The notes under the pieces are model-generated. The model did not search any database. It was not told the DNA's origin and was given only the letters and a program-made list of their open reading frames with translations. Positions 24,915-27,627 of a stretch of DNA of 32,000 nucleotides are shown piece by piece. The stretch lies in NCBI GenBank assembly GCA_003516025.1, contig CP023991.1, positions 90,001-122,000 on the forward strand, read 5' to 3'. The DNA is from Candidatus Saccharimonadota bacterium (GTDB lineage: Bacteria > Patescibacteriota > Saccharimonadia > Saccharimonadales > UBA4665). Every line of letters begins with the position of its first letter. Positions within the stretch are counted from its first letter, which is position 1. The translations under genes and the position numbers were made by a program.

Positions 24915-25571
24915 ATGAACCTGCATCGTATCGAGGGCGAACCGGAATGGTCTGGAGTTAAACCAAAAGACCGCAATAGCTGGCAAAAATTGGCGGCCGC
25001 AACCAAGGGTTTCGTAACACCAGGTAACTTTTTTAGCGTTCTTGGCTTATTAAGCGTGCCGATTGGCCTGTGGCTCATTATTGATGGCAAGCACTACCTT
25101 GCGGGGGCTATAGTTTTGGCAGCGGGGCGGCTATGTGATCTGCTCGATGGCTGGGCGGCCGACAAGACCGGCACAAAGAGTCCATTGGGTGAAAAAATTG
25201 ATGCTTCCTTCGACAAAATTAGTACCGGGCTCGTGCTCCTGGGTTTATGGCTTGGCACGGACTTTCCATTACTATTCGTAGTCCTACTATTAGTGCCCCA
25301 CCTGTTGATTACGCCGCTGGCACTGGCGGCATACCGGCACGGTAAGAGTTTTCACCCATCCTTGCCCGGTAAGTTGAGTATGGCGCTTATCTGGCTCTCG
25401 ATTATTGTCAGCCTGGTCGCCGCGGAGTTGGCAGAACGATCGGAGTCGATGTCGACGGATACCCGTTACATCATCGTGCCGGCCGTAATAGTAGTGGCGT
25501 CATTTATCCTGAGTACGATAGCGTTAGCCGGCTATGTCCGCCAATACTGGCAAACATCGTATGGGCGCTAA
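24915..25571 (+). CDS. CDP-alcohol phosphatidyltransferase family protein
   Basis: DLLDGWAADKTGTKSPLGEKIDASFDK matches D-x2-DG-x2-AR...G-x3-D-x3-D. Multi-TM. TGATATAGT extended -10 at 24900-24908 lies 6 nt before ATG 24915. Confidence 0.85.
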   Translation: MNLHRIEGEPEWSGVKPKDRNSWQKLAAATKGFVTPGNFFSVLGLLSVPIGLWLIIDGKHYLAGAIVLAAGRLCDLLDGWAADKTGTKSPLGEKIDASFDKISTGLVLLGLWLGTDFPLLFVVLLLVPHLLITPLALAAYRHGKSFHPSLPGKLSMALIWLSIIVSLVAAELAERSESMSTDTRYIIVPAVIVVASFILSTIALAGYVRQYWQTSYGR

Positions 25572-26131
25572 ACGGGCTGTTCTTTGAGGCCAAGTTTCCA
25601 ACCGACGTAGGTGGAGGCGAAGTGCATGGCAAACCAGATAATGAATAGCAGCACGTATTGGCGCAAACTTAAGACTACGAAGGGCAGGCTGACCAGCACG
25701 GCTCCCACGATATAGTCCAGCTGGTCAAAAGGAACCCATGCGCCGCCATCGCGCGTGCCTCGCCGGCGTTTAAAGAAACTTTCCAGGGCATCGCCACCCA
25801 GCGCGCCGAGCCCGAATAAAGGTCCTAGCAGTAAAACGGGAAACTGACCGTAGTCAACGCCAGCCGTTACGTTTCCACTCCAACTTACATGAGCGGCAAA
25901 CAACTGCTGCAGCCATAAGACGAGCGTGGCGAAAATTATGCCGCTTATAAGGCCACGCCAGGTTTTGTGTGAGCCGAGTAATGGCCGGCCGTGAAACTGT
26001 TTCCCGAAGTCAAGGCGAGCATTCCACTTATCAATAATTGGAAACCGAGAGGTCAAAATTGGTGCGCCATTAGCCACTGCCGCGGGTAGCATAAACCAAA
26101 AGGCCAGCAGGATGTCGTCGACAAGTTCCAT
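25568..26131 (-). CDS. CarS-like (CDP-archaeol synthase / DUF46 family) integral membrane cytidylyltransferase
   Basis: LPAAVANGAPIL ... LDFGKQFHGRPLLGSHKTWRGLISG ... GDALESFFKRRRG ... PFDQLDY closely follows the CarS family pattern. TGTTACAAT extended -10 lies 6 nt before the ATG. Confidence 0.75.
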   Translation of the reverse strand: MELVDDILLAFWFMLPAAVANGAPILTSRFPIIDKWNARLDFGKQFHGRPLLGSHKTWRGLISGIIFATLVLWLQQLFAAHVSWSGNVTAGVDYGQFPVLLLGPLFGLGALGGDALESFFKRRRGTRDGGAWVPFDQLDYIVGAVLVSLPFVVLSLRQYVLLFIIWFAMHFASTYVGWKLGLKEQPV

Positions 26132-26214
26132 GCAGCTATTGTAACAATAATCAGATGGTTAAGTTTGTGAATAGTTTCACATGCTTTCGATCTTTCATAC
26201 GCTATAGTTTTTGT

Positions 26215-27627
26215 ATGAGAACTGCCATCGTCTGGTTTAGAAATGACTTACGCGTACACGACCATCCCGCGTTAATGGCCGCGATCGCCGCCGCAGACCG
26301 AATCGTGCCGCTGTTTATATTTAACCAAGCCCTATTAACCGGCAAACATGCCTCTGCTAACCGCAACCGTTTTTTAGTGGAGTGTTTGCAGGATTTACAG
26401 TCGTCTTTGCAAAAGATTGGCGGTGATTTGCTTATCCGTAGCGGCGAGCCAAAAGAAGTGTTAAGCAAACTCATCGAGGAAACCGGCGCCAGCGAACTGC
26501 ACTACAGCATTGATTACACGCCGTACGCCCGGAAGCGTGATCGGGAAGTGGCCCGTGCCGTGGAAAACGACGGGCTGGAAATAGTGGCACATCCTGGGCG
26601 CCTGATTGCCGACAGCTTCGAAGGTGTATTAACTGGTGGCGGCAAAGTTTATAAAGTGTTTACGCCGTTTTGGCGTACCTGGGCGAAATTGAAGCGGCGG
26701 CAAGTATTGCCCGCTCCAGCGAAATTAACTGTTCCTCAAAACATGCCCGGCGACTCATTGGAGATTGTCACCGAACATATATCTCAAGCCGACTTATCCC
26801 CGAATGTGCTCAAAGGTGGGGAAACCGCCGGTCGGGAACGCTTGGAGCAGTTTATGAAAACCGGCATCAATAATTACGCGCAGATGCACGACAGTCTGAC
26901 GCCTGATGGCACGTCGCGGCTTAGTCCATACCTGCATTTTGGCTGTGTGTCGCCGCGCGAAATCGAAGACATGTTACGGACAATGACCGGAGACAGCGCT
27001 GCGCGCTTTCACCGCCAGCTGGCCTGGCGTGATTTTTATAATTATGTACTGCTGCATTATCCCGACAACGCTACTCAAGAATTCCAGGAACGTTTCCGTG
27101 GCATGGAGTGGAGTTATGACGAGACTGCCCTCAAGGCCTGGCAGCGGGGCAAGACCGGGTACCCCATTATCGACGCGGCTATGCGCCAGCTGAACGCTGA
27201 GGGTTGGATGCACAACCGCGCCCGCCTGATCGTCGGTTCGTTTTTAACCAAAGACTTGTTGCTGGATTGGCGGCTTGGTGAAACGCACTTTATGCGCATG
27301 TTGCTGGATGGGGACGAGGCCAACAATAATGGTAACTGGCAGTGGATCGCCAGCGTGGGCGTTGATCCGGCACCGGTTTTTCGCCGTTTATATAACCCTA
27401 TGACACAGCAAAAGCGCTATGACGAAGATGGCAGTTACGTCCGCTATTACGTTCCTGAACTTTCAAAAGTCCCCGACAAATACCTGGCTGAACCGTGGAC
27501 TATGCCGCCCGACGTGCAGCAGGAAGTCGGCTGTGTAATCGGTAAGGACTACCCGGAGCCAATAGTGGACCATGCGGCGGCCCGGATTGATACACTTGAG
27601 CGTTTCCGAGTAGCCGGTAGGCCATAA
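26215..27627 (+). CDS. phr: Deoxyribodipyrimidine photolyase (cryptochrome/photolyase family)
   Basis: IVWFRNDLRVHDHPAL, WRDFY, TGYPIIDAAMRQL..GWMHNRARL and DGDEANNNGNWQW motifs. Start at MRTAIVWF, with TATAGT 26203-26208 6 nt upstream. Confidence 0.92.
   Translation: MRTAIVWFRNDLRVHDHPALMAAIAAADRIVPLFIFNQALLTGKHASANRNRFLVECLQDLQSSLQKIGGDLLIRSGEPKEVLSKLIEETGASELHYSIDYTPYARKRDREVARAVENDGLEIVAHPGRLIADSFEGVLTGGGKVYKVFTPFWRTWAKLKRRQVLPAPAKLTVPQNMPGDSLEIVTEHISQADLSPNVLKGGETAGRERLEQFMKTGINNYAQMHDSLTPDGTSRLSPYLHFGCVSPREIEDMLRTMTGDSAARFHRQLAWRDFYNYVLLHYPDNATQEFQERFRGMEWSYDETALKAWQRGKTGYPIIDAAMRQLNAEGWMHNRARLIVGSFLTKDLLLDWRLGETHFMRMLLDGDEANNNGNWQWIASVGVDPAPVFRRLYNPMTQQKRYDEDGSYVRYYVPELSKVPDKYLAEPWTMPPDVQQEVGCVIGKDYPEPIVDHAAARIDTLERFRVAGRP

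What the first reader, a model, noticed from the sequence alone, without database searches (positions are those of the whole stretch)
24915..26131. Archaeal-type CDP-lipid synthase (CarS-like) paired tail-to-tail with a CDP-alcohol phosphatidyltransferase in a bacterium
ORF 25568-26131 (minus) follows the CarS/DUF46 pattern: ANGAPIL, DFGK, GSHKTWRG, GD..ES..KRR and DQLDY. This is the family that makes CDP-archaeol in archaea. It is not the bacterial CdsA family.

Its stop overlaps by 4 bp (CTAA) the stop of a CDP-alcohol phosphatidyltransferase carrying the D-x2-DG...D-x3-D motif. That enzyme would consume a CDP-activated lipid to attach a head group.

Together the two genes form a minimal 'activate, then add a head group' module. 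No fatty-acid, isoprenoid or glycerol-phosphate backbone genes are nearby.

Hypothesis: in a reduced genome this pair could remodel lipids or phosphatidic acid scavenged from a partner or host, or could handle ether/isoprenoid lipids.
Basis: partly seen in the sequence, partly recalled or inferred. Interest (0 to 1): 0.6.

Follow-up and report, generated by a model that had tools for sequence, protein, structure and literature searches.

The report
CarS-type lipid head-group pair, Saccharibacteria
A tiny, lipid-dependent Saccharibacterium has no bacterial CdsA and instead carries the archaeal-family enzyme CarS, joined stop-to-stop with an unusual head-group transferase; the pair most likely puts new head groups on lipids salvaged from a host.

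Summary
ORF 25568-26131(-) is a full-length Pfam CarS-like protein. Its model superposes on A. pernix CarS (5GUF). ORF 24915-25571(+) is a CDP-alcohol phosphatidyltransferase, and the two stop codons overlap in CTAA.

The genome is a 1.0-Mb, 98%-complete Saccharibacterium. I found no CdsA, PlsX/Y/C, ketoacyl synthase, GGGP synthase, DGGGP synthase or G1P dehydrogenase. It does have two DAGK_cat lipid kinases.

CarS-like genes occur in 132 of 201 sampled Saccharimonadales genomes. CDP-alcohol transferases are almost confined to those genomes (116 of 122). True CdsA is rare in the phylum (about 8 of 401).

Best reading: the pair is a salvage route. Lipid kinase makes phosphatidic acid, CarS-like makes CDP-diacylglycerol, and the transferase adds a head group. 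Nothing supports archaeal ether lipids.

The new detail is the transferase. It belongs to a Saccharibacteria subfamily ("type A") that lacks the signature Arg (here D85) and has an invariant Arg before the first Asp. It is closest to PgsA, and its acceptor is unknown.

This scan has already reported the related CarS/PIP-synthase-like/PHP operon in at least 41 other genomes. It noted the convergent type A form once. Public pipelines already name these genes CDP-archaeol synthase.

The parts
25568..26131 (-). CarS-like (PF01864) integral-membrane CTP:lipid-phosphate cytidylyltransferase, 187 aa. It is the only CTP_transf_1-superfamily gene in the genome.
   Evidence: Pfam 94.9 bits, full length. 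NCBIfam CarS equivalog 130.1 bits, below its cut-off of 148. phmmer against 5GUF gives E 5e-13. The AF2 model has pLDDT 95.5, and Foldseek against 5GUF gives TM 0.71/0.83, rmsd 1.7 A. Polar residues invariant in 42 Patescibacteria sequences: N21, K56, T57, R59, D114, S118, K121, R122, D136, D139. No other PF01148 hit in the genome.
24915..25571 (+). 'Type A' CDP-alcohol phosphatidyltransferase, 218 aa from ATG 24915 (220 aa from TTG 24909). It is PgsA-like, with the signature Arg replaced by Asp (D85) and an invariant G73-R74 before D1.
   Evidence: PF01066 72.5 bits. All NCBIfam equivalogs fall below their cut-offs: AIPS 47, ClsA 45.5, pgsA 39.1. The motif has A-D/E in 108 of 120 homologues. 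Invariant residues are listed. The profile's best PDB hit is S. aureus PgsA 7drj, E 1.4e-10. The AF2 model has pLDDT 93.6, with best TM to 7drj of 0.64/0.75. GR lies before D1 in 22 of 22 type A genes against 1 of 68 canonical neighbours.
25568..25571 (.). Four-base overlap (CTAA) of the two convergent stop codons.
   Evidence: Sequence read directly. The same tail-to-tail layout, typically with a -4 overlap, is present in 20 of 80 related loci from other species and in L121 from the window's own family.

Best explanation
The pair is a lipid-salvage and head-group module of a Saccharibacterium that cannot make lipids itself.

1. Diacylglycerol or phosphatidic acid is taken from a host. A DAGK_cat lipid kinase encoded elsewhere in the genome would convert diacylglycerol to phosphatidic acid.
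2. The CarS-family enzyme takes the place of the missing CdsA. It uses CTP to make CDP-diacylglycerol.
3. The convergent 'type A' CDP-alcohol phosphatidyltransferase transfers the phosphatidyl group to an alcohol acceptor. The acceptor is most likely glycerol-3-phosphate or phosphatidylglycerol, giving PGP/PG or cardiolipin.

Shown: family membership, fold, conserved active-site residues, absence of alternative genes, conserved gene neighbourhood and genome co-occurrence.

Inferred: the diacyl (not ether) substrate, the direction of flux, and the acceptor.
For: **Family and fold**
- CarS family membership and fold, with active-site residues invariant.

**Genome inventory**
- No CdsA.
- No PlsC, PlsY or PlsX and no ketoacyl synthase.
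- No GGGPS or G1PDH. The only UbiA-family gene is heme O synthase beside cyo oxidase.
- Two DAGK_cat kinases are present.

**Gene neighbourhood**
- A CDP-alcohol transferase lies within 1.5 kb of CarS-like in 20 of 30 Patescibacteria loci, and within 4 kb in about 66 of 77 Saccharibacteria-type loci.
- In 9 of the 20 loci with the convergent pair, a DAGK_cat kinase sits divergently next to CarS-like. It is 42% identical to the window genome's kinase at L006.

**Co-occurrence in 201 Saccharimonadales genomes**
- 116 of the 122 genomes with a CDP-alcohol transferase also have CarS-like. Only 6 of the 69 CarS-negative genomes have a transferase.
- 35 of the 37 genomes with type A have CarS-like. 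The two exceptions are fragmentary MAGs.

**Phylum level**
- CarS-like is in 73 of 401 genomes, full-length CdsA in about 8.

**Type A identity**
- Type A is nearest to PgsA by profile and by fold.

**Literature**
- Starr 2018 (PMC6031116) proposed salvage of PA followed by CDP-DAG and head-group transferases for a soil Saccharibacterium.
- CDP-alcohol transferases, and CdsA versus CarS, are reported to tolerate both bacterial and archaeal lipids (PMC11334171, PMC7852524).
- A genome-reduced Asgard lineage keeps CarS and head-group enzymes without core-lipid synthesis (PMC12411855).
Against: - No enzyme of this bacterial clade has been assayed. Characterised CarS enzymes act on archaetidic acid, so acceptance of diacyl-PA is an assumption.
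- The protein scores below NCBIfam's CarS equivalog cut-off (130 against 148).
- The two genes converge and cannot be co-transcribed.
- The pair is patchy: 18 of 61 genera in its own family and 0 of 11 in one sister family. Many relatives therefore live without it.
- Type A lacks the signature Arg. In M. tuberculosis PgsA1 that Arg contacts the alpha-phosphate of CDP-DAG (PMC6506517), so its donor or chemistry may differ.
- No PGP phosphatase candidate was found: no PAP2 and no PHP. There is no clear GpsA either. This weakens the PGP route specifically.
Confidence: 0.6

Rival explanations
1. CarS-like acts on a different lipid phosphate, such as lyso-PA, a polyprenyl phosphate or another salvaged lipid, or works as a CTP-dependent lipid kinase like dolichol and phytol kinases of the same superfamily. 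The pair would then build a surface glycolipid or polymer anchor and not bulk membrane phospholipid.
For: - The superfamily includes CTP-dependent polyprenol kinases (established knowledge).
- The genome has no DgkA-type undecaprenol kinase.
- The gene is patchy, as an accessory function would be.
- Type A is atypical.
- Starr 2018 linked Saccharibacteria PI to mannoside glycolipids.
Against: - The match is to the CarS model over its full length, not to the CTP_transf_1 kinases.
- The near-exclusive co-occurrence and linkage with CDP-alcohol transferases argues for a CDP-lipid product.
- The adjacent DAGK_cat kinases in relatives point to DAG and PA.
Confidence: 0.15
2. Type A does not use the CarS-like product. 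Like eukaryotic CPT/EPT, it uses a soluble CDP-alcohol (CDP-choline, CDP-ethanolamine or CDP-glycerol) with diacylglycerol as acceptor, and the neighbourhood reflects a shared lipid theme only.
For: - The motif stretch T-x-T-K-S-P-L-G-E resembles the S-S-P-L-G-E stretch of CEPT1/CHPT1. These are the second-best PDB hits to the type A profile (35.6 bits).
- The Arg that contacts the CDP-DAG alpha-phosphate is missing.
Against: - The best profile hit is PgsA, matched over nearly its full length, and PgsA also gives the best TM-score.
- The protein has six helices, not the larger fold of lipid-acceptor enzymes (PMC4634129).
- 35 of 37 type A genomes carry CarS-like.
- I did not search for a cytidylyltransferase that would make a soluble CDP-alcohol.
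Confidence: 0.1
3. It is a true CDP-archaeol synthase. The bacterium activates ether or isoprenoid lipids, either made by itself or salvaged from archaea.
For: - It belongs to the CarS family.
- CarS-like proteins of other Patescibacteria are 50-55% identical to proteins from Woesearchaeota/Nanoarchaeota MAGs and interleave with them in a tree.
Against: - The genome has no GGGPS, DGGGPS or G1PDH.
- The Saccharibacteria sequences form their own clade, apart from the mixed CPR/DPANN group.
- Known hosts of cultured Saccharibacteria are Actinobacteria with diacyl lipids (established knowledge; for the lifestyle).
- Relatives place a diacylglycerol-kinase-family gene next to it.
Confidence: 0.07

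Closest known systems
Archaeal CDP-archaeol synthase CarS (A. pernix ApCarS, PDB 5GUF; Pfam PF01864; NCBIfam PRK04032)
   Same: - Same Pfam family, matched over its full length.
- Same five-helix fold (TM 0.71/0.83, rmsd 1.7 A, 30% identity).
- Same conserved blocks: G-x-x-K-T-x-x-G, G-D, S-F-x-K-R-R and D-Q-L-D.
   Different: - The host is a bacterium with none of the archaeal core-lipid genes, so the likely substrate is diacyl-PA.
- It scores below the NCBIfam equivalog cut-off.
- It has a loop insertion of about 20 residues relative to 5GUF (alignment).
Bacterial CDP-diacylglycerol synthase CdsA (T. maritima 4Q2E/4Q2G; PF01148)
   Same: The proposed reaction and role are the same. The superfamily is the same, and the C-terminal catalytic region aligns (33.8 bits, positions 164-238). 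It is the second-best fold match.
   Different: This protein has 187 aa and five helices, against about 260-290 aa and nine helices. TM is only 0.39. NCBIfam CdsA scores 27 bits against a cut-off of 385.
PGP synthase PgsA (S. aureus 7DRJ) and CMP-forming cardiolipin synthase ClsA of Actinobacteria
   Same: For type A:
- It has the six-helix CDP-alcohol phosphotransferase fold.
- PgsA is the best profile hit (E 1.4e-10) and the best TM match (0.64/0.75).
- It shares a G-K near helix 5 with PgsA.
- All four signature Asp residues are present.
   Different: - The signature Arg is replaced by D/E (108 of 120 homologues) or by H/N/Q/A.
- There is an invariant G-R before D1 and an invariant T-x-T-K-S-P-L-G-E.
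- It falls far below the pgsA and ClsA equivalog cut-offs.
Saccharibacteria three-gene operon: PIP-synthase-like transferase, PHP phosphoesterase, CarS-like
   Same: It uses the same CarS-like enzyme and the same logic of CDP-activation followed by head-group transfer.
   Different: - The window genome lacks both the PIP-synthase-like 'type B' gene and the PHP gene, and it lacks inositol-phosphate synthase.
- It has only the convergent type A partner, so phosphatidylinositol is not the expected product here.

Membership tests
CarS / CDP-archaeol synthase (PF01864) | Full-length match above Pfam's gathering score | tested here: met
   94.9 bits against 22, over positions 3-173 of 175.
CarS / CDP-archaeol synthase (NCBIfam PRK04032 equivalog) | Score at or above the curated equivalog cut-off (148 bits) | tested here: not met
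   130.1 bits, full length 2-171 of 172.
CarS / CDP-archaeol synthase | Five-helix fold of ApCarS (5GUF) | tested here: met
   AF2 pLDDT 95.5. Foldseek E 2.3e-6, TM 0.71/0.83, rmsd 1.7 A.
CarS / CDP-archaeol synthase | Conserved polar active-site blocks shared with ApCarS | tested here: met
   The blocks align with 5GUF. K56, T57, R59, D114, S118, K121, R122, D136 and D139 are invariant in 42 sequences.
CarS / CDP-archaeol synthase | Works on DGGGP within an archaeal ether-lipid pathway (G1PDH, GGGPS, DGGGPS present) | tested here: not met
   PF13685 and PF01884 gave no hits. The only UbiA-family gene is heme O synthase.
CarS / CDP-archaeol synthase | CTP-dependent cytidylyl transfer to a lipid phosphate | not testable with these tools
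   Needs an enzyme assay.
CdsA (PF01148, nine helices) | Full-length match and typical length of about 260-290 aa | tested here: not met
   Only positions 164-238 of 264 match, at 33.8 bits. The protein is 187 aa. NCBIfam CdsA scores 27.3 against 385.
CDP-alcohol phosphotransferase (PF01066) | Pfam match above gathering score and a six-helix fold | tested here: met
   72.5 bits against 22. The model has six long helices, with TM 0.64/0.75 to 7drj.
CDP-alcohol phosphotransferase (PF01066) | [quoted passage not shown] | tested here: not met
   Seven of the eight are present: D77, D80, G81, A84, G94, D98 and D102. The Arg is D85. It is D/E in 108 of 120 homologues.
PIP synthase / archaetidylinositol-phosphate synthase | Equivalog score and the two acceptor Arg residues (R155 and R195 in MtPIPS) | tested here: not met
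   47 and 32.5 bits against cut-offs of 180 and 170. The region of the first acceptor Arg (R155, on helix 5) instead carries an invariant H149...G154-K155; the second (R195) was not mapped. Acceptor residues are from PMC4634129.
PgsA / ClsA / PssA equivalogs | NCBIfam equivalog cut-offs | tested here: not met
   pgsA 39.1 against 109, ClsA 45.5 against 240, pssA 26.7 against 107.

The most novel reading that the evidence does not exclude
Type A is a functionally distinct CDP-alcohol phosphotransferase. Its relocated Arg (lost from the signature, gained before D1) would reflect a changed donor or acceptor. Examples are a head group not made by the host, or reversible CMP-dependent head-group exchange on salvaged phospholipids. 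More broadly, CarS-type enzymes would be the standard CDP-lipid synthase of lipid-scavenging CPR bacteria and DPANN archaea, exchanged between them because they accept both diacyl and diether lipids.
Probability: 0.15. Interest if true: 0.7.

Novelty: new variant of a known kind. Interest (0 to 1): 0.45.

Why it matters
Saccharibacteria and other CPR bacteria cannot make fatty acids or phospholipids, and how they build and tailor their membranes is an open question.

This locus gives a short, testable route: lipid kinase, then CarS-type activation, then head-group transfer. It also shows that where Patescibacteria have a CDP-lipid synthase at all, it is usually the archaeal family and not CdsA.

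The Arg-less type A transferase breaks a signature described as absolutely conserved. That makes it a natural experiment on how these enzymes hold the CDP-lipid.

None of this implies archaeal lipids in a bacterium. The gene family is already named in public annotation, so the advance is modest.

Tried and rejected
- **Rooted CarS phylogeny.** I could not obtain canonical (euryarchaeal or crenarchaeal) CarS sequences by reference. The searches returned only Patescibacteria and DPANN-labelled proteins. The tree is therefore unrooted and was built in quick mode. It says nothing about the direction of transfer.
- **Literature.** Searches for CarS in CPR or Saccharibacteria found nothing specific. 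The ApCarS structure paper is not held.
- **Conserved wider synteny.** The kup, photolyase, ArsR and SRPBCC neighbours are not conserved around the pair.
- **Promoter and terminator scan.** The scan around the pair gave no more sites than shuffled sequence.
- **ESM Atlas.** For type A it returned only generic family names.
- **Head-group clues in the genome.** There is no Psd, inositol-phosphate synthase, PAP2 phosphatase or PHP phosphoesterase, and only a weak GpsA-like Rossmann hit. The acceptor could not be narrowed further.
- **DGGGPS.** The UbiA hit was rejected as DGGGPS because it is heme O synthase.
- **Complex prediction.** None was run, because I do not claim that the two proteins bind.

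Full report
**What is there**

It matches Pfam CarS-like (PF01864) over the whole model at 94.9 bits. It matches CTP_transf_1 (the CdsA family) only over the C-terminal catalytic part, at 33.8 bits. NCBIfam's CarS equivalog gives 130 bits, a little under its cut-off of 148, and its CdsA model gives 27 bits against a cut-off of 385.

The only solved structure found by sequence is A. pernix CarS, 5GUF (E 5e-13), and the conserved blocks align. An AlphaFold model built on 42 homologues has pLDDT 95.5. It superposes on 5GUF with TM 0.71/0.83 and rmsd 1.7 A. CdsA comes a distant second at TM 0.39.

The plus-strand partner starts at ATG 24915, since homologues begin MNLHR, and ends at 25571. It matches PF01066 at 72.5 bits. 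The two stop codons overlap in CTAA at 25568-25571.

**The organism and its lipid genes**

The window lies in a single-contig genome of 1,005,782 bp that is 98.5% complete. The closest homologues are named Candidatus Saccharimonadales or Saccharibacteria.

Six-frame family searches of the whole genome gave the following:
- No other CTP_transf_1 gene, so no CdsA.
- No PlsC, PlsY or PlsX.
- No ketoacyl synthase.
- No GGGP synthase and no G1P-dehydrogenase-type Fe-ADH.
- No DgkA, no Psd and no PAP2.
- One strong UbiA-family gene, which is heme O synthase beside a cyo-type oxidase and not DGGGP synthase.

Present are two DAGK_cat lipid kinases, one PLD-like protein and a second, odd CDP-alcohol-transferase-like ORF.

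The genome therefore has neither the bacterial nor the archaeal route to a lipid core. It does keep a kinase, a CDP-activating enzyme and a head-group transferase.

**Distribution**

- In an even sample of 401 Patescibacteria genomes, CarS-like is present in 73. Full-length CdsA (over 70 bits) is present in only about 8, and most genomes have neither.
- In 201 Saccharimonadales genomes, CarS-like is present in 132, covering 98 of 153 genera.
- In the window's own family it is present in 18 of 61 genera. This tally includes two unpublished genomes, G585 and G597, both positive. No other claim rests on them.
- A scan of one genome per species found relatives in at least 542 genomes.

The gene is common, vertically coherent within Saccharibacteria and often lost. 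A quick-mode tree gives one supported Saccharibacteria clade (SH-aLRT 96).

CarS-like proteins of other Patescibacteria are 50-55% identical to proteins from MAGs named Woesearchaeota or Nanoarchaeota, and they interleave with them in the tree. I could not root the tree, because no canonical archaeal CarS could be fetched by reference.

**The link to CDP-alcohol transferases**

In 20 of 30 Patescibacteria loci, a gene with the CDP-alcohol signature lies within 1.5 kb of CarS-like. In the 80 best related loci, two arrangements recur.

- *Type B.* This transferase has the canonical signature and lies upstream on the same strand. It is usually separated from CarS-like by a PHP-like phosphoesterase gene of about 215 aa. 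It scores best against PIP synthase and archaetidylinositol-phosphate synthase (102 bits, below cut-off). One locus also has inositol-3-phosphate synthase close by. This is the three-gene operon that this scan has already reported on at least 41 other genomes.
- *Type A.* This is the window's kind. It converges on CarS-like, typically with a 4-bp overlap, in 20 loci. The arrangement also occurs within the window's own family. The scan had noted this form once before, without follow-up.

The window genome has no type B gene, no PHP gene and no inositol-phosphate synthase. Phosphatidylinositol is therefore not the expected product here. The kup and photolyase neighbours are not conserved, so the pair itself is the conserved unit.

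Co-occurrence across the 201 order-level genomes supports dependence:
- 116 of the 122 genomes with any hit to the transferase profile also have CarS-like.
- Only 6 of the 69 CarS-negative genomes have a transferase.
- 35 of the 37 genomes with a clear type A gene have CarS-like. The two exceptions are a 68%-complete MAG and a 170-contig MAG.

Related genomes are not independent, so the Fisher P values overstate the case. The pattern is nevertheless plain.

In 9 of the 20 convergent loci, a DAGK_cat kinase sits divergently beside CarS-like. It is 42% identical over 284 residues to the window genome's kinase at L006. This points to diacylglycerol and phosphatidic acid as the input.

**The type A transferase**

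All four signature aspartates are present (D77, D80, D98, D102), together with G81, A84 and G94.

The signature Arg is D85 here. Clarke et al. describe it as one of eight absolutely conserved residues (PMC4634129). Grave et al. show that it contacts the alpha-phosphate of CDP-DAG, as R76 of M. tuberculosis PgsA1 (PMC6506517). Among 120 homologues the position is D in 86, E in 22 and H/N/Q/A in 12, and it is never R.

The subfamily also has an invariant T-x-T-K-S-P-L-G-E and an invariant G73-R74 three residues before D1. GR at that place occurs in 22 of 22 type A genes, against 1 of 68 canonical transferases next to CarS-like genes. A relocated Arg is my inference from this covariation and has not been tested.

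A profile of the subfamily hits S. aureus PgsA best (E 1.4e-10, nearly full length, including a shared G-K near helix 5). CEPT1/CHPT1 follow through the S-P-L-G-E stretch, and PIP and PS synthases come after them. The model (pLDDT 93.6) superposes best on PgsA, with TM 0.64/0.75. No NCBIfam equivalog cut-off is reached.

I read type A as a PgsA/Cls-like enzyme with an unknown acceptor. Because no lipid-phosphate phosphatase candidate was found, a one-step product such as cardiolipin from PG is at least as likely as PGP.

**How it most likely works**

The host supplies DAG or PA. The DAGK_cat kinase makes PA. CarS-like makes CDP-DAG with CTP. Type A transfers the phosphatidyl group to its acceptor.

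Starr et al. proposed this salvage logic for a soil Saccharibacterium (PMC6031116). A genome-reduced Asgard lineage follows the same logic, keeping CarS, PgsA, PssA and Cls without core-lipid synthesis (PMC12411855). Reported promiscuity of these enzymes between archaeal and bacterial lipids makes a diacyl substrate plausible (PMC7852524, PMC11334171).

The substrate, the acceptor and the direction of flux remain inferred.

**Comparison and novelty**

The protein is a member of the CarS Pfam family by sequence and by fold. It is not shown to be a CDP-archaeol synthase, and the pathway context that defines that function is absent.

It would work like CdsA but is not a CdsA.

Public pipelines already name these genes 'CDP-archaeol synthase'. 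I found no paper in the held library that discusses them in CPR bacteria.

The parts I consider new are:
- the Arg-less type A subfamily and its tie to CarS-like;
- the adjacency of the lipid kinase;
- the count showing that CarS-type genes far outnumber CdsA in Patescibacteria.

Overall the finding is real and of moderate interest.

Noticed in passing
window 26155-27627 (+): The photolyase ORF as listed starts only 23 bp from the CarS-like ATG, on the opposite strand. Its Pfam match begins at residue 24, and an internal Met (M21, about 26215) precedes the conserved MRTAIVWFRNDLR. The true start is therefore probably about 60 bp downstream, which leaves an intergenic region of about 83 bp.
   Followed up: partly
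own genome C1:592524-593321 (L003:1210-2007:+), upstream of dnaX: A 265-aa ORF has a canonical D-G-x2-A-R...G-x3-D-x3-D motif but otherwise barely matches PF01066 (23 bits over 31 residues). It looks poor in transmembrane helices. It may be a degenerate or repurposed CDP-alcohol-transferase relative.
   Followed up: partly
L072:3352-4005, L076:3351-4001, L115:3318-3986 and many other related loci: A PHP-like metallo-phosphoesterase of about 215 aa lies between the PIP-synthase-like transferase and CarS-like in many Saccharibacteria. It is a candidate lipid head-group phosphatase. It is absent from the window genome.
   Followed up: partly
L040:3099-3980(-), L061:3102-3980(-) and 7 further loci; own genome L006:979-1941(-): A DAGK_cat/YegS-type lipid kinase is divergently adjacent to CarS-like in 9 of the 20 loci with the convergent pair. 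Its orthologue (42% identity) sits about 97 kb away in the window genome.
   Followed up: yes
P0306, P0308, P0316, P0343, P0358 compared with L009 and other Patescibacteria loci: CarS-like proteins of non-Saccharibacteria Patescibacteria are 50-55% identical to proteins from MAGs named Woesearchaeota or Nanoarchaeota, and they interleave with them in an unrooted tree. This could mean gene exchange between CPR and DPANN, or mis-binning.
   Followed up: partly
own genome L004:498-2307: Cytochrome o ubiquinol oxidase subunit III and heme O synthase are adjacent, so this Saccharibacterium has an aerobic terminal oxidase.
   Followed up: no
control genomes: Thermus thermophilus also gives a hit above the cut-off for PF01864, so CarS-like proteins exist in non-CPR bacteria that also have CdsA.
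   Followed up: no
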